A stretch of DNA of 64,000 bases from Eledone cirrhosa (lineage: Eukaryota). Each line of letters begins with the position of its first letter. Position 1 is the stretch's first letter. The stretch is from assembly GCA_964016885.1 (NCBI GenBank), contig OZ024740.1:382788001-382852000 (forward strand). Reading direction: 5' to 3'. Position numbers and translations under genes: made by a program. Shown in pieces: positions 1 through 32,394 of the stretch. The notes beneath the pieces are model-generated. The model searched no databases. It was not told where the DNA came from and saw nothing but the letters and a program-made list of their open reading frames with translations.

Positions 1-3000
1 TCCCTGGCTCAGCAGCAGGAACCTGGCTGTCAACCAGATACTGCTGGTGTCGGAGGAAAAAGAAGAAGGAAAGGGACCAGAACCAACTGGACGAAATAAT
101 TGAATAGAACTGTTATGCAATGTTACCTGAAAATTAACCCCAAGGAGAGGGGCTATAGAAGACGGATGCATAACATCTGGAACGAGATTGGTCTATTTAA
201 ATTAGGTGAACAAAAATTGGCCGGGCAGGCTCGGGTAATAAGAACTAATGGGTGGATAAGCGAGCTGGAACTGGAGGAACTGAGCAGAGAGATTAGCTTG
301 GAGGTGGAGGGTGGAGTATGCAAGGCAAACGAGCCAGTGGGAAATGAAGGTGAAGAGGTCGAGAGAACGGAGGAACCACCCAAAGCAGACAATGATCTGA
401 ATACTGAGATAAATAATACCTGGAACAGAGATACGGCCACTGAGAAGATGAATGCTGACGGGCTAGGACAAGATTCGGTTGACATCCTAAATTTAGTGGT
501 AGATGAATTGAACAATGAGGGTGGGAGACCTATGAACCTAAGATTTGTAGACAGGAAAAAGTTAAAAGAAACAACAGCTAAGGTAAACAAAGTCATCCCA
601 TACCTTGAGACGAGGAGCCTTCACCAGTGCAACAATATCCTCAAAGCAACAGCAAATAGGTGAGGAAACTACTTGGTATAAAAGCGAGAGGAAAGAACAG
701 ACAAGAAAGAACAGACAAGAAAGAGCAGAGCCTTGGTGGAAGAAACGACTGAGTGGTCAAATCAGGGAAATGAGAAATGACATTGGAAAGCTTGAGTCAC
801 TACTGAATGGGACACTAAAAAACATAGGCACTAAAAATAGACTGGAAATAAAGTACAAAACTAGGAGGAAAAAGCTAAATATTATCATAGAGGAACTGAA
901 GCAACGCATTGTAGCAAAGAGTGCAAAAATCAGGCGATACAAGAACAGAGTCAGTCAGTATAAACAGAACCGCATGTTCGACACCAACCAGAAGATGCTG
1001 TTTGGAGAGCTTGAGGGGAAAAAAAGAGGCAACGACTTGATCCCTGAGGCGGAACAAACTAAAACATTCTGGAGAGGAATATGGGAACAGGATGTTAGAC
1101 ATAATGACCAGGCAGGGTCGATTGAGACAGTACAGAGGGAGATCGATGAGCAGGCACACCAACAAACTGATTTGAGTATCACAGTTGAAACTCTTAAGGG
1201 GCAGGCCAAAAAGCTAACCAACTGGAAATCACCAGGCCCAGATGGTGTGCAGGGGTATTGGATTAAAAATATAACATCCCTCCACCCGAAACTGACAACC
1301 ATGTTCAATGACTGCTTGATGTCAGGTGAGGTACCAGAGTGGTTGACAAAAGTTACCACAGTTATGATAATGAAAGACCGAATCAAGGGTAATGATGTAA
1401 CCAACTATAGACCTATCACATGTCTGTCCGTAATGTGGAAACTGTTGACGAGCATTGTGTCTGTGGAAATCTACCATCACCTCCACACAAACAACTTGTT
1501 ACCGGACGAACAGAAAGGATGCCGAAAGAAGTCACGTGGTACAAAGGACCAGTTACTTATTGATAAGATGGTAATGGGGAATTGCAGGAGGAGACACACT
1601 GATCTTGCAATGGGATGGATAGACTACAGAAAGGCATTTGACATGGTGCCTCATTCTTGGATCACCAAAAGCCTGGAGATCTTCAAGGTGGCAGATAACT
1701 TCAGACAGTTGTTGGGCAAGAGTATGAGGTCCTGGGAAACAGAGTTGACATCAACTGGAGAATCCTTGGGAAGCGTGAAGATCAAGAGCGGTATCTTCCA
1801 GGGAGATAGCCTGTCCCCTCTGTTGTTTGGCCTTGCCCTGATGCCCCTGACCAGTGTACTGCGAAAAGTGAGAGCAGGATACGGGTTGGGAAAGGGAGGG
1901 CTTACCATCAATCACCTCCTCTTCATGGACGATCTTAAGCTCTTCGGGAAGAGTGAGAAGGAGTTGGATGTGCTTGTTGACACTGTCCGTATTTTCAGCA
2001 GTGATATATGTATGCAGTTTGGTAATAGTAAGTGTGGAGTCATTGTGATGAGGAGGGGTAGGTTGAGCAGAAGTAACGGAATCCAGATACCAACAGGTAA
2101 GATGATAAAGGAAATTGACTCTGAGGAAGGATACACGGATTTGGGCGTTCTGGAGGCTGATGGCATAAAGAACAAAAAAATGAAGGAATTGTTAAGAACT
2201 GAATACATTCGGAGAGTAAGGAGCGTATTGAAGTCACATCTGAACAGCAGAAATGCCATAAGCGCAGTAAATTCCCGAGCTGTGTCTATTATTAGGTACA
2301 GTGCGGGAATTCTGAGATGGAATGTTGCTGAACAAAAAGAAATGGATAGGAAGACTAGGAAGCTATTGACTATCTAAAACATGTTCCACAAGAGGAGTGA
2401 TGTCGATAGACTCTACCTACGGAGATCTGAGGGTGGTAGAGGTCTTATCAGCATAGAGGACTGTGTTCAGATGGAGAAAAACAACCTACACAAATACGTG
2501 ACTGATAGTAAGGAGCCAATGCTCAGAACTGTACTGAAGGAGGGGACAATAGACCAGGGGATGCCCAAGGGGGAAATAACATCAAGGAGAAAGAGCAGCC
2601 TTCAGGAAAAATTCCTTCATAGTACATTCTTTGAGAAAGCTGAATTTAGAGATCCACAGACATGGAACTGGTTAAGAAGAGGAGATCTTAAAAAGGCTAC
2701 AGAAGGAATGTTAATGGCTGCGCAGGAGCAGGCCCTTAAAACGAAGTGGTTGAAACACCATATTTACAAGGAGGAGGCTAGCCCACTGTGCAGGATCTGT
2801 GGAGAGAGAGAGGAGACTGTGGCTCACATTGTATCCGAGTGTAAACACCTAGCCCAGACTCACTATAAGGGCTGGAGACATGATGTGATGGGCAGGGTGG
2901 TCCACTGGCACCTATGCAAAGTAAACAATTTACCACATTCTGAGAATGGTATGAGCATAAGCCAGAGGCGGTGATGGAGAACGATCTGGTGAAGGTGCTG

Positions 3001-3436
3001 TGGGATTTTAGGATACAGACGGACAAGAATCTGGAACACAATAGACCTGACCTGGTGATTGTGGACAAAGAAAAAAAGATCGTGTCTGATTGTGGATGTG
3101 GCCTGCCCATTCGACACGAGAGTGCAAGAGAAGGAGAGGGAGAAAATTAACCGATACCAGGACTTAAAGTGGGAGGTAAAAGGGATTAGGAACTGCCATG
3201 AAGTCAAAGTGATCCCGATTGTTACAGGCACACTGGGGACTATCTCCAAAAGTTTCCAGGGATGGTTAAAGAAAATCGGCCCCTTCACGCTTTTTGGAAC
3301 GCTTCAAAAGGCATGCTTGCTGGGAACAGTAAGAACCCTCCGATACGTTCTGAATATATGAGGCTGCAGGTAGTGGCTTGTTATTCATTCCAACGGACTT
3401 TCCAGTTAACTAACATCAATGACTGAGATTCAAGGA
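1..3436 (+). mobile_element. R4/Dong-like non-LTR retrotransposon (RT + restriction-like endonuclease), family 1 copy A; longest copy, 5' end outside the window, disrupted by stops and frameshifts
   Basis: ORFs 100-663, 605-2377, 2381-2974 and 3059-3361 give RT motifs ([39 protein letters not shown]), the CCHC motif CRIC..ETVAHIVSEC, RHD and PDL...IVDVACP..KE.EK (PD-(D/E)xK). The 3' UTR ends in (TAA)n, the established target of Dong. Confidence 0.93.
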
Positions 3437-3444
3437 ATAATAAC

Positions 3445-3498
<54 letters not shown>
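3436..3498 (+). repeat. (TAA)n microsatellite between copy A and copy B
   Basis: Read directly. Confidence 0.98.
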
Positions 3499-3499
<1 letters not shown>

Positions 3500-5514
3500 T
3501 CTGTCCGTAATGTGGAAACTGTTGACGAGCATTGTGTCTGAGGAAATCTACCATCACCTCCACACAAACAACTTGTTACCGGACGAACAGAAAGGATGCC
3601 GAAAGAAGTCACGTGGTACAAAGGACCAGTTACTTATTGATAAGATGGTAATGGGGAATTGCAGGAGGAGACACACTGATCTTGCCATGGGATGGATAGA
3701 CTACAGAAAGGCATTTGAGATGGTGCCTCATTCCTGGATCAGCAAAAGCCTGGAGATCTTCAGGGTGGCAGATAACATCAGACAGTTGCTAGGCAGGAGT
3801 ATGGGGTCCTGGGAGACAGAGTTGACATCAACTGGAGTATCCTTGGGAAGCGTGAAGATCAAGAGAGGTATCTTCCAGGGAGATAGCCTGTCCCCTCTGT
3901 TGTTTGTCCTTGCCCTGATGCCCTTGACCATTATGCTGCGAAAAGTGAGAGCAGGATACAAGTTGGGAAGGGGAGAGCTTACCATCAATCACCTCCTCTT
4001 CATGGACGATCTTAAGCTCTTCGGGAAAAGTGAGAAGGAGTTGGATGTGCTTGTTGACACTGTCCGTATTTTCAGCAGTGATATATGTATGCAGTTTGGT
4101 ATTGGTAAATGTGGAGTCATTGTGATGAAGAGGGGTAGGTTGAGCAGAAGTAACGGGATCCAGATACCAACAGGTGAGATGATAAAGGAAATTGACTCTG
4201 AGGAAGGATACAAGTATTTGGGCGTTCTGGAGGCTGATGGCATAAAGAACAAAAAAAATGAAGGAATTGTTAAGAACTGAATACATTCGAAGAGTAAGGA
4301 GCGTATTGAAGTCACATCTGAACAGCAGAAATGCCATAAGCGCAGTAAATTCCCGAGCTGTGTCTATTATTAGGTACAGTGCGGGAATTCTGAGATGGAA
4401 TGTTGCTGAATAAAAAGAAATGGATAGGAAGACTAGGAAGCTATTGACTATCTACAACATGTTCCACAAGAGGAGTGATGTCGATAGACTCTACCTAAGG
4501 AGATCTGAGGGTGGAAGAGTTCTTATCAGCATAGAGGACTGTGTTCAGATGGAGAAAAACAACCTATACAAATACGTGACCTATAGTAAGGAGCCAATAC
4601 TCAGAACTGTACTGAAGGAGGGGACAGTAGGCCAGGGGATGTCCAAGGAGGAAATAACATCAAGGAGGAAGAGCAGCCTTAAGGGAAAATCTCTTCATAG
4701 TACCTTCTTTGAGAAAACTGAATTTAGAGATCCACAGACATGGAACTGGTTGAGAAGAGGAGACCTCAAAAAGGCTACAGAAGGAATGCTAATGGCTGCG
4801 CAGGAGCAGGCCCCCAAAACGAAGTGGTTGAAGCACCATATCTACAAGGAGGAGGCTAGCCCACTGTGCAGGATCTGTGGAGAGAGAGAGGAGACTGTGG
4901 CTCACATTGTGTCCGAGTGTAAACACCTAGCCCAGACCCACTATAAGGGCTGGAGACACGATGTGATGGGCAGGGTGATCCACTGGCACCTGTGCAAAGT
5001 AAACAATTTACCACATTCTGAGAAATGGTATGAGCATAGGCCAGAGGCGGTGATGGAGAACAATCAGGTGAAGGTGCTGTGGGATTTTAGGATACAGACG
5101 GACAAAAAACTGGAACACAATAGACCTGACCTGGTGGTTGTGGACAAAGAAAAAAGAACGTGTCTGATTGTGGATGTGGCCTGCCCGTTCGACACGAGAG
5201 TGCAAGAGAAGGAGAGGGAGAAAATTAACCGATACTAGGACCTAAAGTGGGAGGTGAAAAGGATTTGGAACTGCCATGAAGTCAAAGTGATCCCGATTGT
5301 CATAGGCGCACTGGGGACTATCACCAAAAGTTTCCAGGGATGGTTAAAGAAAATTGGCCCCTTCACGCTTTTTGGAACGCTTCAAAAGGCATGCTTGCTT
5401 GGAACAGCAAGAACCCTCCGATACGTCCTGAATATCTGAGGCTGCAGATAGTGGCTTGATATTCAATCCAACGGACTTTCCAGTTAACCAACATCAATGA
5501 CTGAGATTCAAGGA
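3499..5514 (+). mobile_element. R4/Dong-like family 1 copy B, 5'-truncated
   Basis: Near-identical to copy A from ~1420 onward. ORFs 3510-4280, 4420-5238 and 5254-5439. Same 3' UTR followed by (CAA/TAA)n. Confidence 0.93.
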
Positions 5515-5554
5515 ATAACAACAACAATAATAATAATAATAATAATAATAATAA

Positions 5555-5695
5555 TTGTTTCTACTTTAGGCACAAGGCCAGCAATTACCCAGTGCATTAC
5601 TGGTACTTTATTTTATCGACCCCGTAAGGATGAAAGGCAAAGTCAACCTCGGCGGGATTTGAACTCAGATCGTAAAGGGACGTAACTATGCTGGA
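5555..5695 (-). mobile_element. tRNA-derived SINE, 5'-truncated, inside a (TAA)n tract
   Basis: Minus strand reads GAGTTCAAATCCC (B box)...GTCGATAAAATAAAGTACCAG...GGCCTTGTGCCTAAAGTAGAAACAA(TTA)n. Matches the copies at 21646, 30108, 49280 and 50563. Confidence 0.88.
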
Positions 5696-5723
5696 ATTAT
5701 TATTAATAATAATAATAATAATA

Positions 5724-7077
5724 AGCCATAAACACGCTTTACATACCAGTAGTAACCTACAGTTACAATGTCATCAACTGGTCAAGCACAGAGATCCGTA
5801 GGCTCGATTCAAAAATTCGAAAATTCTTAACCATGCACAGAATGCATCACCCTAAGGCAGATACAGATAAAATATATCTCCCTAGGAAAGAAGGAGGACG
5901 TGGGTTAATCCAGTTAGACATTGCGTTGAAAACTGCAACATTTGGATTATCTACATATCTAAGGGAATCACATGATTGGATGATCAAACTCGTTTTAAAA
6001 CACGAAAGCATCAAAAGATCATACTCCATTACAAAAGATGCACAAAGATACAGTAATGGACTACACATTCTAGAAGTCCCATTTACTGCTGAAATGGAAA
6101 ACACAGAAAAAGCAAAGCAGGTAAAAGTAACTGCAAAGAAAGAACTGCTACAGAAACTGGCTAAGAAATGGCAAGAAAAGCGTCTGTATGGAAAATACCC
6201 AGAGCGAGATAACAATCCTGATGTTGACAAAACTTTAACCCATCAGTGGTTGGCATCCTCTGGACTGAAATCGGAGACTGAAGGACTGATTATATCAGCA
6301 CAAGATCAGTGTCTGCCAACAAAAAATTACCAAGCCAACATAATAAAATATGGATGCAGCCCAGTATGCCGTGTATGCAAAAAACAACCAGAGACCATTG
6401 ACCATATAATTTCAATGTGCAGTCCTATAGCCCAACCGAATACCTAAACAGGCATGACAGAGCTGCACAATACATACATTGGATAATGTGTAAGCATTTT
6501 GACCTGCCCCATCAAAAGAATTGGTGGGAGCATCAACCACCTCCCATACTTGAAAAAAGATCACATCTCAATCTTGTGGAACTTTAGCATCCAAACAGAC
6601 CGAAAAATAGATGCAAATAGATCTGATATAATATTGAAGGACTTTAAAAGGAGGTTATGCCTTCTAATTGATATGTCCGTTCCAATAGACAAGAATGTAT
6701 CTATAAAAACATTTGAAAAATTGAGCAAGTATAAGGACCTGGAGATAGAAATTGGAAAAATGTGGAAATTGAGAACTAAAACAAAACCAGTGGTTGTAGG
6801 CGCTCTGGGAATGATACCTAAGGGGTCTAATGATTTATTATCGCAAATCCCAGGAAACCCGCGTATAGGAGAAATACAAAAGATAGTACTAATGGGAACT
6901 GCCCATATACTAAGGAAGATTCTGTCAATATAAGTACATCACAAGTCTAAACACTAAAGATGCATGTGTGAGTATGTATGTTCTTTCTTGAACATGGCGG
7001 ACCTTGTTGTCTCTTGAGGTCACTGGTTGTGACTTGGTGATAACTCGTATGAACATAAAGCAAGATAAATTCAACTG
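5724..7077 (+). mobile_element. R4/Dong-like family 2 (divergent, AT-richer) copy C, 5'-truncated
   Basis: ORFs 5833-6447 and 6499-6933 contain LYLPRKEGGRGL-like, ETEGLIISAQDQ, CRVC..ETIDHIISMC, RHD and NRSDI...LIDMSVP..EKLSKYKDL. Different 3' UTR from family 1; flanked by (TAA)n on both sides. Confidence 0.9.
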
Positions 7078-7118
7078 TAATAATAATAATGATAATAATA
7101 ATAATAATAATAATAATA

Positions 7119-7263
7119 ACTTTAACCCATCAGTGGTTGGCATCCTCTGGACTGAAATCGGAGACTGAAGGACTGATTATATCAGCACAAGATCAGTGTC
7201 TGCCAACAAAAAATTACCAAGCCAACATAATAAAAATGGATGCAGCCCATTATGCCGTGTATG
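7119..7263 (+). mobile_element. Family 2 fragment C' (copy of ~6232-6377)
   Basis: Near-identical to 6232-6377 and starts directly after (TAA)n. Confidence 0.9.
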
Positions 7264-8410
7264 TATCACAGTTGAAATTCTTAAGGGACGGCCAAAAAAC
7301 TAACCAACTGGAAATCACCAGGCCCAGATGTTGTGCAGGGTTATTGGATTAAAAATATAACATCCCTCCACCCGAAACTGACAACCATGTTCAATGACTG
7401 CTTGATGTCAGGTGAGGTACCAGAGTGGTTGACAAAAGGTACCACAGTTCTGATAATGAAAGACCGAATCAAGGGTAATGATGTTACCAACTATAGACCT
7501 ATCACATGCCTGTCCGTAATGTGGAAACTGTTGACGAGCATTATGTCTGAGGAAATCTACCATCACCTCCACACAAACAACTTGTTACCGGACGAACAGA
7601 AAGGATGCCGAAAGAAGTCACGTGGTACAAAGGACCAGTTACTTATTGATAAGATGGTAATGAGGAATTGCAAGAGGAGACACACTTTTCTTGCCATGGG
7701 ATGGATAGACTACAAACAGGCATTTGACATGGTGCCTCATTCTTGGATCACCAAAAGCCTGGAGATATTCAAGGTGGCAGATAACATCAGACAGCTGTTG
7801 GGCAAAAGTATGAAGTCCTGGGAAACAGAGTTAACATCAACTGGAGAATACTTGGAAAGCGTGAAGATCAAGAGAGGTATCTTCCAGGGAGATAGTCTGT
7901 CCCCTCTGTTGTTTGTCCTTGCCCTGATGCCCCTGACCAGTGTACTGCGAAAAGTGAGAGCAAGATATGGTTGGGAAAGGGCGGGCTTACCATCAATCAC
8001 CTTCTCTTCATGGACGATCTTAAGCTCTTCGGGAAGAGTGAGAAGGAGTTGGATGTGCTTGTTGACACTGTCCGTATTTTCAGCAATGATACATGTATGC
8101 AATTTGGTATTAGTAAGTGTGGAGTCCTTGTGATGAAGAGGGGTAAATTGAGCAGAAGTAACGGAATCCAGGTACCAACAGGTGAGATGATATATGAAAT
8201 TGACTCTGAAGAAGGATACAAGTATTTGGGTGTTCTGGAGGCTGATGACATCAAGAACAAAAAAATGAAGGAATTGATAAGAACTGAATACATTCGGAGA
8301 GTAAGGAGCGTATTACATTCACATCTGAACAGTAGGAATGCCATAAGTGCAGTAAATTCTCGAGCTGTGTCTATTATTAGATACTGAATATTTAAGGCTG
8401 CAGGTAGTGG
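7264..8410 (+). mobile_element. R4/Dong-like family 1 copy D: RT region fused to a stop-codon/3' UTR stub after an internal deletion
   Basis: ORFs 7333-8133 and 7971-8387. At ~8384 the sequence jumps from SIIRY to TGAATATTTAAGGCTGCAGGTAGTGG, the family 1 3' end. Confidence 0.9.
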
Positions 8411-8468
8411 ATTGCTGGCCTTGTGCCTAACGTAGAAACAATTATTATTATTATTATTATTATTATTA
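8411..8468 (+). mobile_element. SINE 3' stub with (TTA)n tail
   Basis: ATTGCTGGCCTTGTGCCTAACGTAGAAACAA(TTA)n matches the SINE 3' end. Confidence 0.8.
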
Positions 8469-8469
8469 A

Positions 8470-8621
8470 ATATGTCGTTTCAACCACTTCGTTTTGACGG
8501 CCTGCTCCTGCGCAGTCATTAACATTCCTTCTGTAGCCTTTTAAAGGTCTCCTCTTTTCAACCAGTTCCATGTCTGTGGATCTCTAAATTTAGTTTTCTC
8601 AAAGAAGGTACTATGAAGGGA
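8470..8621 (-). mobile_element. R4/Dong-like family 1 fragment F
   Basis: Reverse complement of ~2614-2765 (STFFEK..RDPQTWNWLKRGDL..). Bounded by TTA tracts. Confidence 0.88.
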
Positions 8622-8852
8622 TATTATTATTATTATTATTATTATTGGCGACCTACGTAGTAAATCGTATCATCGTGAGCTCCGCAAAGGTTTGTTATTT
8701 CCGTTTGTTAAAAATTGTCATTTATGGAAAATTTTATTGTTAACTGTTTATAAGCGCACATACATTGTTTTCCGAAAAGGACACCCAAAAGATTGGGGCC
8801 TTGTGCCCACAATTTAAACTTTTATTATTATCAAAAAATTTCTTTGAAAAAA

Positions 8853-10832
8853 ATGGCTAATTCCCCTCTGCAACAAACAGCTGAAAGCCTCCCTCACAAA
8901 TTAACACCTCACACCGACACCACCATTGTAAATGTTACTACGTTTGCCAACACAAAAAAAAATATAAGCAGTAGCAATATTTTAAATTTGTCTCAGGCAG
9001 ACATTCATTTCCCGCCATTACCAATGACTGCAGGTATTAAAGCCTCCACCACCACCACCACCACCGCGACAACCACCACCCCCACCACCACCGCGACAAC
9101 AGAAACAAAAGAAGAAAAAAATAAATTAACTCGTGATGTCGAAATGAAATCAAGCAAAATGGACTCTTCCCCACCAAAGACGACTGACGTCACCACCACC
9201 ACAACTGAAACTAAAATTAATATTAACGATAGCAACAACAACAACAATGACATTATAACCCCCCCCCCTCAGTTTCGCCAGAGTAGCAAAACAATTCGAA
9301 GCATTTACGGTAACTCAGGAAGATTTAGAAAATGCCAAACAAATGGTAAAGAAAGATGGGTACAGGGTCAGCCTCACCCCCACCTAATAAAATGGAGCAT
9401 CGGCGCCTATGCACCGTGTCGTATAGAACAATAAATGTAAAACCGCGCCGAGTGGAACGGGCATCCGAGTCCCAAATCCAAAAAGCTTTGGGATATGTGT
9501 GGGCAAGAAAAACCCACATCAGACGTGGGCAAAAGTATGGAACCGTGGATGTGTTCTTTGAAACACCAGAGGAGGCTAGAGAACACTCCATGGCCCCATT
9601 AAAAAGTGACGACTTCACACTCGTCCCAAGCTATTGTGGCCAGAGACTCGTAAAGATCAGGGTGACCCACGTTCCACCGGCCATCGAAATTCCCTGGCTA
9701 ATAGCGGCTGTCCTCGCCGGCATCGAAGCCAACACGAAAATAATAGCAATAGCAAAAGAAAAGCAGGAAAACTGGTCCGGATCTGGGATGGAGCTCCTGA
9801 TCCAAGCGGACCAAAAAAGCATTGAGGAGATCCCAGAGGTAATAGACCTCACTGACGGCAGCCACCTTACGGTAATTGTCGAGGGCTGAAGACCTAGGTG
9901 TGTCGTTTGTGGTGAAGGAACCCACCTAAGGGCTTTCTGCCCTCAGGATAAAAGGTTGAGGCCACCTCTCCTACCCACCCCAGTGACACAACCATCAACA
10001 CCACCAGTAGCAGAGATGCCAGCAACAACTGTAGCAGCAACAACAGAAGCAACTATAACAGCAACAACCCCAGCAACAGTAGCAAAACCAACACCACTAC
10101 CACCACCAGCAAAACCAACACCACCACCACCCAACGCTTCAGAACTAGCACCAGCGCCTACACCATCCACCACACCACAACCAAAACTAACGGCTGTGGA
10201 GGATTTTCCACTCCCCGGCCTATCACAACTGGAGACAGATTGTGACGACGAGGAGTGGGAAACGATATCCGGAAAAAAAAAAGAAACCAAAAAAGAAAAA
10301 ATTCTCTTCCTTCCCCCTCCAAAAACAAAATACAGAGGGAAACAAATAAACTAAGAAACAAAAAAGTTAGGACAGATATGCCACCATCCACACCAGCATC
10401 ACCAACCCCATCAACCCAAACACCAACACCATCACTAACTCCAACACCACCATCACCTACACCACAAAGGTCATCAAAATGCGAAACAGAAAAAACCCAC
10501 AACAAACGCAAACAAAACAAAACAACCAAAACGATACACACTACACAGCATTAAATTTGAACAACAAGCAATTATTGCACTACATCCAACACAACACCAG
10601 CATCACAGAAAAAGACTACACAACAACCCCAAAATTCACACCACCTCCACACATACAAATCACTCGCATCACACAGAAAACGTACATGACACTAAAACAA
10701 AAATTCCCCAAAGACATCGGAGACTTCCGACAAGCACTCTCCAGGAGGATTTATAAGGACATCCTTCCTGAGGAGGCCACAAGCAGTGAAAAGGATGGAA
10801 AAACCGTCCTTCCCCTACGAGAAGTAAGGTAA
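8853..10832 (+). pseudogene. Tx1-type ORF1 (RRM-like region + CCHC zinc knuckle + Pro/Thr-rich tail), disrupted
   Basis: ATG at 8853. Apparent frameshifts near the C run (~9259-9268), the A run (~10273-10282) and ~10500-10550. In-frame TGA at 9887-9889 is followed by RPRCVVCGEGTHLRAFCP (CX2CX4HX4C). YGTVDVFFETPEEA and VKIRVTHVPP resemble Tx1 ORF1 RRM segments. Confidence 0.75.
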
Positions 10833-10866
10833 GTGGTCTTTCCCATCTTTTCCACTCCTTTTCAAC

Positions 10867-13800
10867 ATGACCTCACTCAGAATAGGCAGCATAAATGCGC
10901 GTGGCTTGGGGTCGTCATGGAAGCAGGGCCACCTGCTCAACGACCTCAGGTCACTAAACATAGATGTAGTGGCCATCAGCGAGACCAGAATCTCCGAAGC
11001 ACAGGCTTTCGCACCGATCTTCGGCGGCTACGATGTGTACGCATCTCCCAGCCGTCCCGGATCGGGGGGAGGAGTTGCTGTGCTTTTTCGGAGAGGTTTG
11101 GATCTTGCCATACGGGCCATCTTCCTGGACCCAGAAGGTAAGTCGGTGGTGCTGGACGTGACCAGCGGAGACGGGCAAGCTTTCAGGTTAGTGGCCGTCT
11201 ATGCCCCGACAGGAGCAGGGCGGCCTGATTTCTTCCGGCGTCTGGAGACCTTTCTTGGAACGTCCCGCTCTTTAGTGTTAGTGGGCGACTGGAACGGGAT
11301 TTTAGATGCATGCTGGGATTGTGTGGGAATAGTGGATAGGGAAGGAGGGTGCAAGAGTCTCACCAACCTGCTCAGACGTTTTGAACTGTCTGACAGGTAC
11401 CGAATGGATTTCCCGAATGTACCAATGTGGACTTGGACAAATCGCATAGGGTCATCCAGATCATATCTAGATAGAGTATTTTGTAGGGAAACAGATAGGT
11501 CTAGCATAGGCTGTCCACAATTCAAGATAGTCAGCTACACGGACCACAAATTCGTGATCTGTGTGCTTGACTTAGATAGGTTTCATAGACGAGGACCCGG
11601 CTACTGGAAGCTAAACGCGTCCTTACCAGCGCGCAAGGCCTACAGAGACCGGATTAGCGAACTAGTTAAGCGGGCGTTGACGGGGGCCATCGTCAACAAC
11701 AAGTGGTGGTTTGCTCTGAAAAGAGCAATTAGAATAGAGTCCATTAGGTTTAGTAAGACTTTAGCAATAGAGAAAAATAGAGCAGAGGGAGAATTAGTTA
11801 GAAAATTAGATGAGGCGCTTAGCAAAGGCATCGCGACCGACGTACTTGCGGCGAAATTGGCCCTTGACCAATTCTTCAATGCAAAGCACGAAGGCTGCGT
11901 TGTCAGAGCTAGGGTGCGTGCTCTCAGACACGAAGGGACGAAAGCCGTTAAATGGGCCCGAGTGGCGGAGGCGCGTCGTGGCAACAAAGCCACGATCCGA
12001 TCTTTGGTGGACCACGACGGGCGCATGCTACTCGATCCCGGGCAAATGTGTGAAGCTTTTCAGCGACACTTCGCTCAACTGTTCGGGGGCAGTGGCGGGC
12101 CGGATCGAGGGATGGACTTTAGTGTCTACCTCGACGGACTGCCGCAGCTTTCGGCCACTGAGGCGGAGTGTTGCGAAAAGCCGATAACAACCGATGAAGT
12201 ACGGGATGCAATGACTAGTTGCACAAGGGGTAAATCGCCTGGTTTGGATGGTCTGCCCCATGAACTTTACGTACAAATGCCAAACTTGTTCGGAGGCCTC
12301 TTGGCGGACGTCTACTGCAACTGGCAACAGAACGGGAGAATTACCAGCTCTGTGAGCCGAGGAGCGGTGGCGCTGCTGAGAAAGGATCCGAACAAGGGGG
12401 ATAACATAGATAATTTTAGGCCCATAACTCTGCTAAACACAGAGTTCAAGATTTTGGCCAAGGTGCTAGCAAAGAGGTTGGCGCTTGTCGTTGGTGGTCT
12501 GGTGGGAGAGGCACAGACATGCGCCATTCCCGACAGATCCATCCACGACAACCTCCACCTCATGCGATACATCGTAGAGAGGGTAGCTAGGGAACCTGGC
12601 ACGGGTGGGTTTTTGATCAATTTAGATCAGTCGAAAGCCTTCGATAGGGTCGACCATCGTTACCTAACGGCAGTCCTGAGGGCGGCTGGCTTTGGGCCCG
12701 TCTTCAGAGGCTGTATCGCTGCCATGCACAGCGACATCTGCTCTGTAGTGAGAGTGAACGGTCACCTTTCGGAACCGTTCCACATCATGCGCTCGGTCCG
12801 CCAAGGATGTCCCCTCTCGTCCGTATTGTACGTATTGACTCTCGAGCCATTACTGCACAAACTGGAGACGTTGAGGGGGGTCCCGCGCGAACTAGGATGC
12901 GGAAGATCCGTGTCAGCATATGCCGACGATGTCACTGTAGTGGTGTCGAACGCCAAACACATCGAGGCAATCGGCACTACACTAAGAGAATACGAAGCGG
13001 TGACAGGAGCAATGATCAACCAGGAAAAGTCAGTGGGCCTGCAGCTCGGCACCTGGAGAGGCAGGTCCATGCCGTCCAACAGCGTCGTCGGGCGCTGGAC
13101 GGACGGACCGGTTAAATTGCTAGGGGTCTGGTTCGGTCCAGACCTCCAGACGGACAAAAACTGGGACGAGGTGACGAGCAGGGTGGCTTCTCTCACCCAG
13201 AAATGGGCCGAGAGGAAGCTATCCCTGAAAGGTCGAGCGGAGGTGGCGAATGCGTACATCGCATCCGTCATCTACTACCGCCTGACCGTCGTACCTTGTC
13301 CTAAGCCCCGCCTGACTGCGCTGGAGCGTTCGCTCTTTCGCTTCTTGTGGAAGGGACGCGCTCCGATGGTCAGGCGGTCCATCTGCTGTCAACACCCGCT
13401 ACGTGGAGGGCTGGGCATGCCGTGGCTGATGATGCGCAGACACGCGCTCAGGCTACGACATCTCCACCTCTTCCTCGACGGTGATCAGGTGTGGTCGCCG
13501 TTTGCAAGACACGTTTTTCCCCAGCTCGTCTCCTTGACGGAGCTGCAGTCCTGGGTCAAGCGAAGACCGAGAGGGAGCGCTTGGAGACTGGAATGTCTTC
13601 AGGCGCTCACAGCCCTCGACCAATCGGGCAATGTGATCGGTGGAAACTCCACCTTGGCGTTCTATAGGGGATTAGTGGAGGGGAAGAGCGACAACGTACT
13701 TGGGGAAACTCTAGGCGGCGACGAAATTCAACTAGCCAATCTCTTCGGAAGGACTTTCGGGCCGGGGCCTATGGACAACTTCCAGAAATCCCTGGCCTGG

Positions 13801-14286
13801 CAGTGCTACCGAGGAGCTTTGCCAGTTCGGGATAAACTCTACAGGCATGGAGGTGCCGTCAGCCGGGCATGTCCGAGATGCGCGCAGGGCGACGAAACCG
13901 TCCTGCACGCACTCGTCCAGTGTCCGAGCATTGCTGACTTGTGGGTTTATGTCGAACACCTGCTGTCACGTGTAGGACGGATCCAGCTATCAGCTGAGTC
14001 CATCGTGAGGATTGCCCCGCCCCCTTCCTTTAGCCTGGAAGGGCAGGCAGTTTTTATCTGTCTGGTGGCCATGGCGAAAGAGATAGTATGGTGGACACGT
14101 TTGAAAGGGCTGAAGACGAGCACTTACCTCTTCGGTGATGCCCTGATTAACTTTTTCAAATTTCATTTGAAAAGGAAAATCAGGGTAGAGAGGGAAGTGC
14201 TCTCTTCCCAGCATTTTGTTGAAAGATGGGTGAGAGAAGCAAGTATGGCCCGAATGAATGGGCCTTCTCTGAGTATGTGTCTGTAA
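10867..14286 (+). CDS. Tx1/L1 ORF2: APE endonuclease + reverse transcriptase + CCHC zinc finger (1139 aa, uninterrupted)
   Basis: APE motifs SINARG, ISET, VYAP, GDWN, YLDRVF and TDH. PGYWKLNAS linker. RT motifs KSPGLDG, FRPITLLN, DQSKAFD, QGCPLS and AYADD. C-terminal CPRC..ETVLHALVQC. Confidence 0.96.
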   Translation: MTSLRIGSINARGLGSSWKQGHLLNDLRSLNIDVVAISETRISEAQAFAPIFGGYDVYASPSRPGSGGGVAVLFRRGLDLAIRAIFLDPEGKSVVLDVTSGDGQAFRLVAVYAPTGAGRPDFFRRLETFLGTSRSLVLVGDWNGILDACWDCVGIVDREGGCKSLTNLLRRFELSDRYRMDFPNVPMWTWTNRIGSSRSYLDRVFCRETDRSSIGCPQFKIVSYTDHKFVICVLDLDRFHRRGPGYWKLNASLPARKAYRDRISELVKRALTGAIVNNKWWFALKRAIRIESIRFSKTLAIEKNRAEGELVRKLDEALSKGIATDVLAAKLALDQFFNAKHEGCVVRARVRALRHEGTKAVKWARVAEARRGNKATIRSLVDHDGRMLLDPGQMCEAFQRHFAQLFGGSGGPDRGMDFSVYLDGLPQLSATEAECCEKPITTDEVRDAMTSCTRGKSPGLDGLPHELYVQMPNLFGGLLADVYCNWQQNGRITSSVSRGAVALLRKDPNKGDNIDNFRPITLLNTEFKILAKVLAKRLALVVGGLVGEAQTCAIPDRSIHDNLHLMRYIVERVAREPGTGGFLINLDQSKAFDRVDHRYLTAVLRAAGFGPVFRGCIAAMHSDICSVVRVNGHLSEPFHIMRSVRQGCPLSSVLYVLTLEPLLHKLETLRGVPRELGCGRSVSAYADDVTVVVSNAKHIEAIGTTLREYEAVTGAMINQEKSVGLQLGTWRGRSMPSNSVVGRWTDGPVKLLGVWFGPDLQTDKNWDEVTSRVASLTQKWAERKLSLKGRAEVANAYIASVIYYRLTVVPCPKPRLTALERSLFRFLWKGRAPMVRRSICCQHPLRGGLGMPWLMMRRHALRLRHLHLFLDGDQVWSPFARHVFPQLVSLTELQSWVKRRPRGSAWRLECLQALTALDQSGNVIGGNSTLAFYRGLVEGKSDNVLGETLGGDEIQLANLFGRTFGPGPMDNFQKSLAWQCYRGALPVRDKLYRHGGAVSRACPRCAQGDETVLHALVQCPSIADLWVYVEHLLSRVGRIQLSAESIVRIAPPPSFSLEGQAVFICLVAMAKEIVWWTRLKGLKTSTYLFGDALINFFKFHLKRKIRVEREVLSSQHFVERWVREASMARMNGPSLSMCL

Positions 14287-14528
14287 ATTAAAGGTGGAAA
14301 ACTGGGAGAGGGCACTTTCCCTGGTGGTCAGGGCCACTGTGGTCTTTTAATGGGCTTTCTCCACAAATGTCCCTTGGAAGTCTCCCCCCTATTGGGGAAT
14401 TTTTCTTTGTTATTTTATTTCAACCTCTGTTTTTTTACACGCAGAAATGCCCATTTGTACCTTCCTGTATTGTCCTGTACTGTCCTTAATGTCTACTTTA
14501 TGTGAACCCTTGTGGTTAATAAAGAAAA

Positions 14529-14559
<31 letters not shown>

Positions 14560-14567
14560 GTTATTAC

Positions 14568-17365
14568 TCCTTGAGTCTCAGTCATTGATGTTAGTTAACT
14601 GCAAAGTTTGTTGGAATGAATATCAAGCCACTACCTACAGCCTCAGATATTCAGGACATATCGGAGGGTTCTTGCTGTTCCCAGCAAGCATGCCTTTTGA
14701 AGCGTTCCAAAAAGCGTGAAGGGGCCGATTTTCTTTAACCATCCCTGGAAACTTTTGGAGATAGTCCCTAGTGCGCCTATGACAATCGGGATCACTTTGA
14801 CTTTATGGCCGTTCCAAATCCTTTTTACCTCCCACTTTAAGTCCTGGTATCTGTTAATGTTCTCCCTCTCCTTCTCTTGCACTCTCGTGTCGAATGGGCA
14901 GACCACATCCACAATCAGGCACGATCTTTTTTCTTTGTCCACAACCACCAGGTCAGGTCTATTGTGTTCCAGTTTCTTGTCCGTCTGTATCCTAAAATCC
15001 CACAGCACCTTCACCTGATCGTTCCCTATCACCGCCTCTAGCTTATGCTCATACCATTTCTCAGAATGTGGTAAATTGTTTACTTTGCATAGGTGCCAGT
15101 GGATCACCCTGCCCATCACATCATGTCTCCAGCCCTTATAGTGGGTCTGGGCTAGGTGTTTACACTCGGACACAATGTGAGCCACAGTCTCCTCTCTCTC
15201 TCCACAGATCCTGCACAGTGGGCTAGCCTCCTCCATGTAAATATGGTGTTTCAACCACTTCGTTTCGAGGGCCTGCTCCTGCGCAGCCATTAACATTCCT
15301 TCTGTAGCCTTTTTAAGGTCTCCTCTTTTCAACCAGTTCCATGTCTGTGGATCTCTAAATTCAGTTTTCTCAAAGAATGTACTATGAAGGGACTTTTCCT
15401 GAAGGCTGCTCTTTCTCCTCGATGTTATTTCCTCCTTGGACATCCCCTGGCCTATTGTCCCCTCCTTCAGTACAGTTCTGAGCATTGGCTCCTTACTATC
15501 AGTCACGTATTTGTGTAGGTTGTTTTTCTCCATCTGAACACAGTCCTCTATGCTGATAAGACCTCTTCCACCCTCAGATCTCCTTAAGTAGAGTCTATCG
15601 ACATCACTCCTCTTGTGGAACATGTTGTAGATAGTCAATAGCTTCCTAGTCTTCCTATCCATTTCTTTTTGTTCAGCAACATTCCATCTCAGAATTCCCG
15701 CACTGTACCTAATAATAGACACAGCTCGGGAATTTACTGCGCTTATGGCATTTCTGCTGTTCAGATGTGACTTCAATACGCTCATTACTCTCCGAATGTA
15801 TTCAGTTCTTATCAATTTCTTCATTTTTTTGTTCTTGATGTCATCTGCCTCCAGAACACCCAAATACTTGTATCCTTATTCAGAGTCAATTTCATATATC
15901 ATCTCACCTATTGGTACCTGGATTCCGTTACTTCTGCTAAATTTACCCCTCTTCATCACAAGGACTCCACACTTACTAATACCAAATTGCATACATATAT
16001 CATTGCTGAAAATACGGACAGTGTCAACAAGCACATCCAACTCCTTCTCACTCTTCCTGAAGAGCTTAAGATCGTCCATGAAGAGAAGGTGATTAATGGT
16101 AAGCCCTCCCTTTCCCAACCATATCCTGCTCTCACTTTTCGCAGTACACTGGTCAGGGGCATCAGGGCAAGGACAAACAACAGAGGGGACAGACTATCTC
16201 CCTGGAAGATACCTCTCTTGATCTTCACGCTTTCCAAGGATTCTCCAGTTGATGTTAACTCTGTTTCCCAGGACTTCATACTTTTGCCCAACAACTGTCT
16301 GATGTTATCTGCCACCTTGAATATCTCCAGGCTTTTGGTGATCCAAGAATGAGGGACCATGTCAAATGCCTGTTTGTAGTCTATCCATCCCATGGCAAGA
16401 AAAGTGTGTCTCCTCTTGCAATTCCTCATTACCATCTTATCAATAAGTAACTGGTCCTTTGTACCACGTGACTTCTTTCGGCATCCTTTCTGTTCGTCCG
16501 GTAACAAGTTGTTTGTGTGGAGGTGATGGTAGATTTCCTCAGACATAATGCTCGTCAACAGTTTCCACATTACGGACAGGCATGTGATAGGTCTATAGTT
16601 GGTAACATCATTACCCTTGATTCGGTCTTTCATTATCAGAACTGTGGTACCTTTTGTCAACCACTCTGGTACCTCACCTGACATCAAGCAGTCATTGAAC
16701 ATGGTTGTCAGTTTCGGGTGGAGGGATGTTATATTTTTAATCCAATACCCCTGCACACCATCTGGGCCTGGTGATTTCCAGTTGGTTAGTTTTTTGGCCT
16801 GCCCCTTAAGAGTTTCAACTGTGATACTCAAATCAGTTTGTTGGTGTGCCTGTTCACTGATCAACTTCTGTACTGTCTCAATCCACACTGCCTGGTCATT
16901 ATGTCTAACATCCTGTTCCCATATTCCTCTTCAGAATGTTTTAGTTTCTTCCGCCTCAGGGATCAAGTCGTTGCCTCTTTCTTTCCCTTCAAGCTGTCCA
17001 AACAGCATCTTCTGGTTGTTCTCGAACATGCGGTTCTGTTTATACTGACTGACTCTGTTCTCGTATCGCCTGATTTTTGCACTCGTTGCTTCAGTTCTTC
17101 TATGATAATATTTAGCTTTTTCCTCCTAGTCTTGTACTTTATTTCGAGTCTATTTTTAGTGTCTATGTTTTTAGTGTCCCATTCAGTAGGGACGCAAGCT
17201 TTCCAATGTCATTTCTCATTTTCCTGATTTGACCACTTAGTCGTTTCTTCCACCAAGGCTCTGCTCTTTCTTATCTGTTGTTTCCTCTCGCTTTTATACC
17301 AAGTAGTTTCCTCACCGTATTTGCTGTTGCTTTGAGGATATTGTTGCACTGATGAAGGCTCCTCC
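14568..17365 (-). mobile_element. R4/Dong-like family 1 copy E, 5'-truncated, inverted relative to copies A, B and D
   Basis: ORFs 15956-16888, 15876-16118 and 14643-15863 (406 aa with a complete CCHC + PD-(D/E)xK C-terminus). 3' UTR runs into minus-strand (TAA)n. Confidence 0.93.
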
Positions 17366-17366
<1 letters not shown>

Positions 17367-17437
<71 letters not shown>

Positions 17438-17440
17438 TAT
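17367..17440 (+). repeat. (TTA)n microsatellite, right boundary of the LINE cluster
   Basis: Read directly. Confidence 0.97.
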
Positions 17441-17454
17441 ATATACATATATAT

Positions 17455-17513
17455 AAGATCCCGTGAAGAGTGAAAGCAGCAATTCTTTGCTTAAACTTTA
17501 ATCTGTTACTTTA
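17455..17513 (+). mobile_element. Short repeat-family fragment (same family as 27195-27316 and 32398-32459) with a degenerate hammerhead-like core
   Basis: AAGATCCCGTGAAGAGTGAAAGCAGCAATTCTTTGCTTAAACTTTAATCTGTTA recurs at the two other sites. Confidence 0.6.
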
Positions 17514-17525
17514 ATATATATATAT

Positions 17526-20025
17526 AAAATAAAATATATAAGTTAAATATTTAAAATTTGGCTTCGTTTATTACTTCTATATTTCGGTGACAGCTATACA
17601 CACGTACACACACCCACAGCCCACATGCCTACGCACATCCTCCCACCCACACACACACATGTAAGTATCGGTGCATGTACAATCTTAAATAACAGTTGTC
17701 ACAGGAGTCGATCGAGGCAGAGGTAGGGTCGAGCTGATGTCATTATTGCTAGAGGGAAGTTCCTATCCCAATGTGTTGTTACTGTCCATTTAGCTTGAGG
17801 AAGGTCCCGGCCCTGAGGTGTCTAAATGTCCCGAATAAGTGCATCCTGCGGTTTATCAGGCTGCTTCCACATCTTAGTATCTCGATCGAGGGTCTCGCTC
17901 AGACATAATTTGCAGATGCCACATCCCCCTTTATCAGGTGGTACTTTCCTGATTATGGACGAAGCCAGAGAGTACGGGGTCCTGTCCAGCATGAGCTTCC
18001 AGATCAGTTGGGATAGAGCCGTACTTTTCCTTTTATCGTCCCCATTGAAAAGAATGGCGTTGGTTATACCATCGGTCTTTAAAGCTCGTTGATGTGGCTC
18101 CTATATAAAGGTGTTCAGAGTTGGGGGGTTTTACTCTACATCCGTATATTATGTTCTTCCTAAGGCATTCATTATTAAGGCGGCATAATTCCGGGTTTCT
18201 GCAGTTGCAGGAGGTGGTCGACCTCCGCGTGCCTAGTGTGGGGTTCACGTCACGTGTTATATGGTGGACTTCCCTCGTGCCCGGTGGGGGTGGGGTGGGG
18301 GTGGGGGTGTTTAGGTTTGAAGGGTGGGCACTGGGTCCACCCTTCTTTCCTTCCTCATGGTTCTTCTGTGTGCTTATATTGCCAGCTTCTGGTTGTGTGT
18401 GGTTTTTAAGTCTACTCCTGTAGATACTAGCTATGTGTTGAGCCACATTTCTCGTGCTAGAATACGAGAGCTTCACAGTGTGTCTGTGGAAGATCTTGTG
18501 GTATCTATGGTCCCTCGGGAAGCATTTATCTAGTGCTCTAAAGAATGAGCGGGCCAAGCTGTTCTTTAGGCCCGCTGAGTAGGGCGGGTTGTACCACGTG
18601 ATTTTTCTGCGTCCACTCCTATGTGGGTGGGTTGAGCGTGCCGTGGGCTGTTGGGGAGTTGTTGGGCTGCTAGTGGTTCCCGCTATTGCTTCCCCTTGGG
18701 GCGCTATGTGTTTTGCTACCTTCTCGGCCCGAATCTCTGGGGTGGTTGTTGCCCGCAGTGGGAGCTCTACAATGGGATGGTCCCTCGTCAACCCCTCCAC
18801 GTTACTTGCGGTTGGGGGCGTCGGCCTCGGGGTGGTTAGTATCACCCCTGAGACCGCTACTCGTATTGGGTTTCCTCCCATGACTATGCGTACTCGCCCC
18901 CTCTCCCATCTGGTGGCGTCGGGCTCATGGTGCTTAGTTGTTTTCATTCTGCCTGTATTGTTAGGGTTCGCCTCCTCCCGAACATCGTGGGTGGGGGTGT
19001 CCTTTGGGCCATCCCCATCCTGGCGCCTCGGATTATATGATATATTTTCGCCATGCGCCGCCTTATTTAGAACTGCGTTGTAATATTCGGCGTTGCTATC
19101 GAAGATTTTCTTATTTACGGACAGGCTGGAGATCCTGTCCGAGACACTCTTCACCATGGCCTTAGTTATGAGTTATGGATCTAGGGTGGTTTGATTTGGC
19201 GTTAACATACACAAGTTTCTCGTCGGCCTTGTGGTAGGGGTAGTATTGCTCGGTGTTCAGGTTTAGGCTGGTGTCTAGGCAGCTAATTACCTTTCTATTT
19301 GGGTCCAGTTCGATACTGAGTTCTTGGTTCTTAAAGAAATGCCGAATACGCCTGTTCATTCTCTCCACCATAGTGGTGCTGTTGTCATAGACTGTGAAGA
19401 GAGCATCGTCATGATACAATCAGCCGCCCAGGCAGCGGATTTCATCTTTTATCTGCATCAGCAGGAAGAGCCCAAAAAGGTCCGTTACCTGTGCGCTGGA
19501 GCCCATCGTGATGTCAAAGTTTGGCCAATCACTCCTGGTCCAAAGGTCTCCGTCGAAACGGATCAAAGTCTTTCGTGCGGCGTGGATGATGCACCACTCC
19601 TCTCGGGTTAGGTCCGTATTGGACATCGCTAAAAACAGGACCTTGTTCAGTACAATGGGCGAGATATCCAGTTAGATAAAGCTGGTCCTACTCTTCCCAG
19701 GTGGTATCTTAAATCATTCTATCAGCTCTCCCGTGCTTGACCATGGCTGTAATCTAGTTTTTTCCGAAGCTTGGGCGAAACTCTATCTATTATGCTTTTA
19801 CTGACAATCCCTATGTCTGATCTGGAGGGGGCTATTAGTGTAACAAGGAGGTCGGACTCAAAGTTTGGCTTTTGATCTTTAAGGGTAATCCGCCGCTCCC
19901 CTTGGTCGGTATGGGCTGTCCTGTCCTCTATGTCGAGTCCGGATATAATCCTGTAAGCTGTGGCGTTGCTCTCATCCAGGGTAAATCCAGGTGCTGTTTT
20001 GTAGCATTTCCTCAGTTCCCTGAGA

Positions 20026-27134: not shown

Positions 27135-27194
<60 letters not shown>

Positions 27195-27195
<1 letters not shown>

Positions 27196-27316
27196 TAAAA
27201 TAACAGATTAACGTTTAAGGAAAGAATCGGTGCTTTCACCCTTAACGGGATCTTCTGAAGATCCCATTAAGTGTGAAAGCAGCGATTCTTTGCTTAAACT
27301 TTAATCTGTTATTTTA
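27195..27316. repeat. Near-perfect palindrome centred on a CTGAAGA hammerhead-like core
   Basis: TAAAATAACAGATTAA...GGGATCTTC|TGAAGATCCC...TTAATCTGTTATTTTA. Confidence 0.85.
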
Positions 27317-27419
27317 ATAAATATTTGGTCTACGGTTCTTATATATTTTATATATATTTATTCTAATCGAGCTCTCTATGGATTTTAGTCTTCAAATTTA
27401 TTATTATTACTATATATAT

Positions 27420-32363: not shown

Positions 32364-32394
<31 letters not shown>

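What the first reader, a model, noticed from the sequence alone, without database searches (positions are those of the whole stretch)
1..17440. 17-kb retrotransposon community chained together on one (TAA)n microsatellite
Seen: about ten insertions from four unrelated families (two Dong-like RLE families, one Tx1 APE LINE, one tRNA SINE) lie back to back with essentially no unique DNA, and most boundaries are TAA/TTA tracts. Dong-like copies always have TAA on their sense strand, while Tx1 and the SINE have TTA on theirs. Established: Dong (R4 clade) targets (TAA)n. Inference: each insertion regenerates target repeat through its tail, making a self-extending landing pad shared by enzymes with different endonucleases and opposite strand preference.
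Basis: partly seen in the sequence, partly recalled or inferred. Interest (0 to 1): 0.75.

Follow-up and report, generated by a model that had tools for sequence, protein, structure and literature searches.

The report
Retrotransposons stack in shared TAA repeats
Two unrelated kinds of jumping gene sit end to end in short TAA repeats here and at thousands of places in this genome, each kind facing its own way, likely because their enzymes cut opposite strands of the repeat and each insertion likely leaves more repeat for the next; the small third element only passes through.

Summary
Real and genome-wide, with corrections. Ten retroelement pieces plus TAA/TTA tracts cover 17,437 of 17,440 bases, and the array runs 3.3 kb further upstream. 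The L1/Tx1-type LINE is a strict (ATT)n targeter: 1,532 of 1,687 full-length 5' ends follow (ATT)4. The Dong-type LINEs use the same repeat from the other strand; 7 of 371 flanks break this polarity. A second 25-kb array turned up without selection. Corrections: (1) it is not one tract, because polarity flips at a repeat-free junction at 8410; (2) there are two enzyme systems, not four unrelated families, since DongA and DongB are related and the SINE tail resembles the Tx1 tail; (3) the SINE is dispersed, with at most 8% of ~151,000 3' ends in (ATT)4; (4) target does seem to grow at insertion (17-25 units at filled sites versus 4 at empty paralogs), but on both sides, so a tail alone is not shown. 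Dong on TAA and Tx1 on other microsatellites are published; an ATT-specific Tx1 sharing Dong's target was not found in seven searches. This scan noted the same system before at several other places in this genome.

The parts
1..3435 (+). DongA copy 1: full-length R4/Dong-type LINE (RT, CCHC, RLE), frameshifted; its 5' end lies 1,077 bases upstream of the window, behind the TAA tail of a truncated DongB copy (-3286..-1098) that is preceded by (TAA)12
   Evidence: 96.5% to its nearest sampled copy
3436..3498 (+). (AAT)21 tract
3499..5513 (+). DongA copy 2, 5'-truncated, young subfamily
   Evidence: 99.0% to other genomic copies, 94.5% to copy 1
5514..5555 (+). (AAC/AAT)14 tract
5556..5697 (-). 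SINE, 5'-truncated (positions 44-184 of a ~184-nt element), ATT at its 3' end
5698..5724 (+). ATT/(TAA)7 tract
5725..7077 (+). DongB copy, 5'-truncated (CCHC + RLE motifs)
7078..7119 (+). (TAA)14 tract
7120..7263 (+). DongB internal fragment, fused without repeat to the next piece
7263..8410 (+). DongA fragment with an internal deletion at 8384 (jumps from RT to the 3' UTR); ends at the repeat-free polarity switch
   Evidence: segment 8355-8430 covered by an independent contig and by raw reads
8411..8440 (+). SINE 3' fragment (last ~30 nt)
8441..8468 (+). (ATT)9 tract
8467..8621 (-). DongA internal fragment lacking its 3' end
8622..8646 (+). (TAT)8 tract, 5' flank of the Tx1-type LINE
8647..14529 (+). 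Full-length L1/Tx1-type LINE: broken ORF1 with CX2CX4HX4C knuckle (8754-10832), open ORF2 frame of 1152 codons stop to stop (10828-14286) with APE, RT and zf-RVT
   Evidence: 99.3% to other copies over its 3' part
14530..14566 (+). (ATT)12 tract shared tail-to-tail by Tx1 and DongA
14567..17365 (-). DongA copy, 5'-truncated, older subfamily
17366..17440 (+). (TAT)25 tract, right end of the array, followed by (TA)n

Best explanation
The stretch is a pile of separately inserted non-LTR retrotransposons of two kinds, Dong-type (restriction-like endonuclease) and L1/Tx1-type (APE endonuclease), that both sit in (TAA)n/(TTA)n tracts in fixed opposite orientations and that likely pile up because each insertion splits a tract and leaves more repeat on both sides. 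Shown: target, polarity, clustering, different ages, longer tracts at filled than at empty paralogous sites. Inferred from the standard target-primed reverse transcription model: Dong nicks the TTA strand first and Tx1 nicks the TAA strand, priming on ...TAAT-3' paired with a 3' AUU end of its RNA. New repeat likely comes from target-site duplication (about 9-19 bp for the SINE, at least ~23 bp in one Dong copy) plus slippage or tail synthesis at both junctions. The SINE is likely moved by a Tx1-group enzyme in trans; it needs only ATTA(T), is dispersed, and enters arrays as a passenger. This array is two oppositely oriented sub-arrays, likely joined by a deletion at 8410.
For: Genome-wide, 1,532 of 1,687 exact Tx1 5' ends follow (ATT)4 in one phase. 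All 10 exceptions among the first 100 were fetched and still lie in interrupted or 3-unit ATT tracts. Tracts of 4 or more units flank 29 of 29 Tx1 5' ends, 29 of 29 Tx1 3' ends, 26 of 29 DongA 5' ends, 28 of 29 DongA 3' ends and 29 of 29 DongB 3' ends, own copies excluded. Polarity holds at 364 of 371 annotated flanks. Across the tract from a focal LINE end lies another LINE in 88 of 145 cases (2 of these an unidentified repeat), against 13 of 68 tract sides in 790 kb of evenly spaced genome (Fisher p=1e-8). 29 of 99 gaps between successive DongA 3' ends on C1 are 10 kb or less, 2.1 expected. The first (TAA)9 matches on C1 include a 25-kb array of the same design. Copies in the window differ in age, and Dong-next-to-Tx1 pairs are scattered over both family trees. 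A dispersed host repeat has 4 TAA units at 12 of 13 empty copies (7 at one) but 17 and 25 units in total at two Dong-filled copies; one carries the same interruption on both sides. 12 hand-picked solitary copies have a median of 25.5 units on both sides together, against 7 for 17 empty tracts. The SINE tail matches Tx1 tails at 15-16 of 24 end-anchored positions (p=3e-4 and 3e-5) and Dong ends at 5-9 of 24. 9 of 12 SINE duplications in the random sample start with ATTA.
Against: Longer tracts at filled sites would also result if the enzymes simply prefer rare long alleles; only two filled copies of that host repeat were seen. 3' tracts are not longer than 5' tracts (Dong medians 8 vs 14, p=0.11; Tx1 15 vs 13, p=0.24), and one full-length Tx1 has under 3 units at its 3' end, so a tail is not required. 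No duplication could be read for the Tx1 LINE itself: interruptions 7-12 bases before the 5' end did not recur at the 3' end in L302, L304 or L305. Clustering can also come from regional bias or selection. The sampled copies are the best matches to the window's copies, so they are young by selection, and the five sets may share a few junctions. The SINE's relaxed target differs from the LINE's strict one, so its mobiliser may be another Tx1-group family. Nicking strand is inferred, not measured. Clade names rest on domains and target, not on a tree with named references.
Confidence: 0.72

Rival explanations
1. Fixed pool of good targets: both LINE kinds need long, pure tracts, which are rare, so they meet in the same places; insertion splits tracts but adds little new repeat.
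For: Only 8 of the 17 empty random tracts of 5+ units reach 9 units. A uniform per-tract model predicts about 19% LINE neighbours and 61% is seen, which a length threshold would partly close.
Against: Empty paralogs of one host repeat have 4 units at 12 of 13 copies, yet filled ones carry 17 and 25. One Tx1 sits in a 3-unit site. Arrays of 10-14 pieces each keep 5-32 units at nearly every junction.
Confidence: 0.15
2. One reading: each element's RNA tail is what regenerates the target, for all four families including the SINE.
For: Nearly all LINE 3' ends carry tracts. In L006/L328 about eight AAT-like units lie between the Dong 3' end and a block that looks like the whole empty site.
Against: 5' tracts are as long or longer. 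The SINE has a median of 2 ATT units and at most 8% reach four. L303 Tx1 has no added tail.
Confidence: 0.07
3. Neutral graveyard: insertion is not biased to arrays; solitary copies elsewhere are removed by selection or ectopic recombination, and arrays persist in low-constraint regions.
For: Most top matches lie on the large contigs C1-C4 and C28. The array shows deletions and fusions.
Against: It does not explain the exact junction phase or the strand polarity. The youngest copies are already in arrays.
Confidence: 0.04
4. Assembly concatenation through the microsatellite, or amplification of a pre-formed Dong::Tx1 composite.
For: No long reads were available and the TAA-joined junctions could not be tested, because the read tool skips repeats. 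A few locus pairs are duplicates (L004/L013, L045/L046, L156/L158).
Against: Strict polarity and phase, copies of different ages, and no shared clade of composite copies. The repeat-free stretch 8355-8430 is covered by a low-depth contig and by about 4 raw reads of another study.
Confidence: 0.02

Closest known systems
Dong (R4 clade): B. mori Dong, DongAg, DongBg, ostracod Dong1/2 (passages of PMC3812793 and PMC7998251)
   Same: RT with C-terminal CCHC and restriction-like endonuclease, no APE, (TAA)n target on the sense strand. Dong-R4 is already reported as abundant and young in Octopus vulgaris (passages of PMC13282606).
   Different: Here two Dong families chain with each other and with an APE element into 20-25 kb arrays. 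No HDV-like 5' ribozyme was found, though B. mori Dong has one (passages of PMC3774820; my search was crude).
Microsatellite-specific Tx1 families: Kibi (TC)n, Koshi (TTC)n, crocodilian Tx1 on (TTCC)n/(TTTC)n (passages of PMC4494074, PMC3812793)
   Same: APE-RT LINE with strict insertion into a microsatellite.
   Different: Target is (ATT)n, not named in the passages read, and it is shared with an RLE element from the other strand. Figure 3 and the supplements of PMC4494074, which list further targets, and Repbase were not seen.
SINEU / Tx1-Mar of crocodilians (passages of PMC4494074)
   Same: A SINE inferred to be moved by Tx1, with weaker target preference than the LINE and tandem copies sandwiching a target duplication.
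   Different: Here the head is tRNA-like, the link is a shared 3' tail motif, and the target is a 4-5 base ATTA(T) motif.
RTE-related retroposons with microsatellite-like 3' ends (passages of PMC6007223)
   Same: The 3' repeat correlates with the first bases of the target duplication, as with ATT here.
   Different: A different clade, and not repeat-array specific.

Membership tests
R4/Dong clade | RT followed by CCHC finger and PD-(D/E)xK restriction-like endonuclease; no APE | tested here: met
   RVT_1 and zf-RVT, no Exo_endo_phos. RT is closest to R2 among solved structures. The C-terminus aligns weakly to the R2 endonuclease region, E=0.007. Motifs read.
R4/Dong clade | (TAA)n target, sense orientation | tested here: met
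   26 of 29 5' ends, 28 of 29 and 29 of 29 3' ends
R4/Dong clade | N-terminal Myb/SANT-like domain, no N-terminal zinc fingers | tested here: inconclusive
   No Pfam Myb hit; no zinc-finger pattern seen by eye in the N-terminal translation
R4/Dong clade | 5' HDV-like ribozyme (shown for B. mori Dong and R4) | tested here: inconclusive
   No Rfam hit, no hit with a crude descriptor of my own
R4/Dong clade | RT phylogeny with named R4/Dong references | not testable with these tools
   Homolog searches returned no clade-named proteins
Tx1 clade (L1 group) | ORF2 with APE, RT and C-terminal zinc finger, L1-like | tested here: met
   Pfam; best solved match LINE-1 ORF2p, E=6e-51, against R2 2e-19
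Tx1 clade (L1 group) | ORF1 with gag-like CCHC knuckle (feature recalled, not from a call) | tested here: met
   CX2CX4HX4C in the ORF1 pieces of the window and in the open ORF1 of L223
Tx1 clade (L1 group) | Insertion preference for a multicopy target | tested here: met
   1,532 of 1,687 5' ends follow (ATT)4
Tx1 clade (L1 group) | RT phylogeny with named Tx1 references | not testable with these tools
   No clade-named homolog
tRNA-derived SINE | tRNA-related head with A and B boxes | tested here: inconclusive
   A- and B-box-like motifs and complementary head ends read by eye in full copies. ARAGORN found nothing. The weak Rfam tRNA hits in L101 were not on the focal copy.
tRNA-derived SINE | Target-site duplications and a 3' end shared with a LINE | tested here: met
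   Duplications of 9-19 bp at 12 of 25 random copies; 15-16 of 24 tail positions match Tx1
(TAA)n-specific elements | SINE: most copies flanked by the microsatellite | tested here: not met
   At most 12,121 of 150,743; 1 of 25 in the random sample

The most novel reading that the evidence does not exclude
An APE retrotransposon has converged on the Dong target from the opposite strand, and the two manufacture each other's landing sites: a self-amplifying, two-enzyme niche that builds thousands of polarised arrays. Sister Tx1 families with nearly the same endonuclease hairpin sit in (ATCT)n and in a satellite, and a SINE with the same tail needs only ATTA. Target choice in this group would then be set largely by RNA-end/primer pairing or by regions outside the classic loop, and could be switched experimentally.
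Probability: 0.35. Interest if true: 0.65.

Novelty: new variant of a known kind. Interest (0 to 1): 0.46.

Why it matters
Both lifestyles are known separately: Dong on TAA, Tx1 on other microsatellites. Their convergence on one repeat with opposite polarity, in thousands of young copies, gives a natural experiment on how APE and RLE enzymes read the same DNA. A young family with an open ORF2, sister families with other targets (endonucleases about 60% identical for the satellite-flanked one) and a relaxed SINE make target-specificity switching directly testable. It also accounts for many long TAA tracts and multi-kilobase repeat piles in this genome.

Tried and rejected
Composite Dong::Tx1 co-mobilisation: rejected, the pairs are scattered on both trees. 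Local tandem duplication: rejected, window DongA copies are 92-97.6% identical to each other while copy 2 is 99% identical to distant copies. Tail longer than 5' flank: not found. Reading a Tx1 LINE target duplication from interrupted tracts: no shared interruption in the three informative copies. HDV-like ribozyme at 5' ends: none found. Clade naming through homologs: no named hits. A suspected third Dong family at L037/L049 stayed unidentified. A (TAA)9 pattern search gave overlapping hits from a few tracts only, so 79 evenly spaced 10-kb stretches were used as the null. The L211 low-complexity matches were artefacts and were dropped by masking. Read support for TAA-joined junctions could not be had, since repeats are skipped and no long reads were listed. 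Literature: searches found no report of an ATT/TAA-specific Tx1 or of Dong/Tx1 co-targeting. The library lacks most subscription papers and Repbase; the original Dong paper was not held and Kojima and Fujiwara 2004 was seen only as a citation.

Full report
Setting. The window lies at G000 C1:382,788,001-382,852,000 in a 3.0-Gb genome. The closest named relative of the APE-RT protein is from Argonauta hians at 72%, so the host is likely an octopod.

Observation. BLAST against family copies taken from outside the array tiles 1-17440 with ten pieces (17,110 bases) and TAA/TTA tracts (327 bases); 3 bases are left. In order: DongA full-length (+, starting 1,077 bases before the window), DongA truncated (+), SINE (-), DongB (+), a DongB fragment fused to a DongA fragment (+), a SINE 3' fragment (+), a DongA fragment (-), a full-length L1/Tx1-type LINE (+), DongA (-). 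Eight of ten boundaries are tracts. The array continues upstream to -3322 with a truncated DongB behind (TAA)12. It is not one tract: TAA is on + left of 7119 and TTA is on + right of 8441, and the switch at 8410/8411 has no repeat. The stretch 8355-8430 is covered by one 82-nt contig at depth 9.8 with one difference and by about 4 raw reads of a different study over 8396-8427. This falls short of the tool's 31-base bridging rule, and TAA-joined junctions could not be tested.

Identity. DongA and DongB have RT, CCHC and PD-(D/E)xK motifs and no APE; RT is closest to R2 among solved structures. They are related: 47% identical in RT, 77% over ~370 nt of 5' end. The 8647-14529 element has an open ORF2 with APE, RT and zf-RVT, closest to LINE-1 ORF2p, and a CCHC knuckle in its broken ORF1. 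Clade names rest on architecture and target; no named references were available for a tree.

Targets. I fetched the 30 best genomic matches for each of six element ends and scored 29 each, leaving out the window's own copy. Tracts of 4 or more units flank 29/29 Tx1 5' ends, 29/29 Tx1 3' ends, 26/29 DongA 5' ends, 28/29 DongA 3' ends, 29/29 DongB 3' ends, but only 3/29 SINE 3' ends. Genome-wide exact counts agree: 1,532 of 1,687 Tx1 5' ends follow (ATT)4, and all 10 exceptions among the first 100 still sit in interrupted or 3-unit ATT tracts. In contrast, at most 12,121 of 150,743 SINE 3' ends are followed by (ATT)4; the numerator pattern is two bases shorter. Background is 1.9% of ATTA sites or 4.4% of ATTAT sites, so the SINE is only 2- to 4-fold enriched. 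Of 534 tract flanks in the loci then held, 371 matched a family and 7 broke the rule Dong-sense/Tx1- and SINE-antisense relative to TAA.

The SINE. In the first 400 kb of evenly spaced sample, 1 of 25 copies has four ATT units; 12 of 25 have duplications of 9-19 bp and 9 of these start with ATTA. Tandem SINEs sandwich the same duplication (L105, L112, L113, L120, L121), which shows target regeneration by duplication for this machinery. Its last 24 bases match the window's Tx1 at 15 positions and a second ATT-flanked Tx1 family at 16, against 5-9 for Dong ends in either orientation. It is likely a Tx1-group passenger; which family moves it is open.

Clustering. In 79 evenly spaced 10-kb stretches (790 kb) there are 34 tracts of 5+ units and 13 of their 68 sides touch a LINE. 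Across the tract from a focal LINE end, 88 of 145 sides are LINE, two of them an unidentified repeat (p=1e-8). If every tract were an equal target the two fractions would be equal (my derivation for a uniform per-tract model), so tracts beside elements are about three times over-used. Length preference, regional bias or selection could contribute. Among the first 100 of 10,880 DongA 3'-end matches, 29 of 99 gaps are 10 kb or less, 2.1 expected. The first (TAA)9 matches on C1 led to a 25-kb array of 14 or so pieces with the same polarity. This window is therefore typical, not unique.

History. Window copies differ in age: DongA copy 2 and the Tx1 are 99.0% and 99.3% identical to distant copies, copies 1 and 10 about 96.5-96.9%. 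In both cases the young copy sits in the 3' tract of an older one. Dong-Tx1 neighbours are scattered across both family trees, so no composite unit was amplified.

Does insertion make target? A dispersed host repeat has 4 units at 12 of 13 empty copies and 7 at one; two Dong-filled copies carry 8+9 and 14+11 units, and in L308 the same interruption is on both sides, implying a duplication of at least ~23 bp. Twelve solitary copies, hand-picked for having no LINE directly across either tract, have a median of 25.5 units on both sides together versus 7 for 17 empty tracts, measured slightly differently. This favours net gain but cannot exclude preference for rare long alleles. It does not single out the tail: 3' tracts are not longer than 5' tracts, and L303 has under 3 units at a Tx1 3' end. 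L328 does look like a Dong with an added tail.

Mechanism. Shown: target, polarity, phase (Tx1 5' junctions end in ATT in 37 of 38), clustering, serial ages. Inferred from target-primed reverse transcription (established knowledge): opposite first-strand nicks, priming by pairing of the nicked ...TAAT with the RNA end for Tx1, and growth by splitting plus duplication and slippage. The polarity switch is likely a deletion joining two sub-arrays, since the rest of the DongA 3' UTR is not found at the right end.

Known systems. Dong targets TAA in silkworm, mosquito, snail and ostracod (passages of PMC3812793, PMC7998251). Tx1 families Kibi, Koshi and crocodilian relatives target (TC)n, (TTC)n, (TTCC)n and (TTTC)n, and Tx1-Mar likely moves SINEU (passages of PMC4494074). 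Dong-R4 and L1-Tx1 are listed as recently active in Octopus vulgaris; the word 'target' does not occur in that paper's main text (passages of PMC13282606). I also read passages of PMC4640811, PMC3774820, PMC9115989, PMC4758252, PMC6007223 and PMC10294476. Seven searches found no ATT-specific Tx1 or Dong/Tx1 co-targeting; figures, supplements and Repbase were not seen and may hold one. This scan noted the same system at several other places in this genome; those are unchecked notes and were not used as support.

Verdict. A real, genome-wide, new variant of a known habit. Interest 0.46.

Noticed in passing
L191, L221, L223 (3' ends); L218, L219; L186: Sister Tx1-like families about 70% identical to the window LINE end in the same 3' motif but are followed by (ATCT)n or by a ~70-bp satellite. 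The endonuclease of the satellite-flanked family is about 60% identical and its hairpin region differs little.
   Followed up: partly
L031:8924-9294 vs L295:2194-2540: DongA and DongB share ~370 nt of 5' end at 77% although their proteins are 47% identical, suggesting 5' UTR exchange. DongB carries a SINE 3' fragment at a fixed place in its 5' UTR in several copies.
   Followed up: partly
L223:3927-9946: A Tx1 subfamily with a different 5' end and a divergent open ORF1 (714 codons) on a 96% identical ORF2; its 5' end follows ATTATT in 6 of 6 copies.
   Followed up: partly
L015, L090, L175, L152, L301: (TAA)n(GAA)m tracts sit at Dong 5' junctions where the copy begins at one of its own GAA triplets; short repeated pieces of the 5' end occur at L126, L139, L143, L169. 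This may reflect slippage or microhomology during 5' joining.
   Followed up: no
window 7263-8384 vs 15705-16827: These inverted DongA pieces are 97.6% identical, closer than either is to the two other sampled copies covering this part (96.4%); local conversion or inverted duplication is possible.
   Followed up: no
G000 C1:2,789,000-2,815,000 (L293-L296): A second, 25-kb array of Dong and Tx1 copies with the same polarity.
   Followed up: yes
L033 (26.5 kb upstream of the window): A small separate cluster: Tx1, (ATT)18, DongA antisense, SINE, ATT.
   Followed up: partly
window 17600-20000, minus strand: Degraded RT plus GIY-YIG-like reading frames, Penelope-like by eye; label recalled, no Pfam hit.
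   Followed up: no
window 27167-27410, 32366-32475 and 17455-17550: Copies of a dispersed (TA)n-flanked repeat that carries a 4-unit TAA tract; used as the empty-site control.
   Followed up: partly
window 30731-31468: Short RT fragment (RVT_1, E=8e-5).
   Followed up: no
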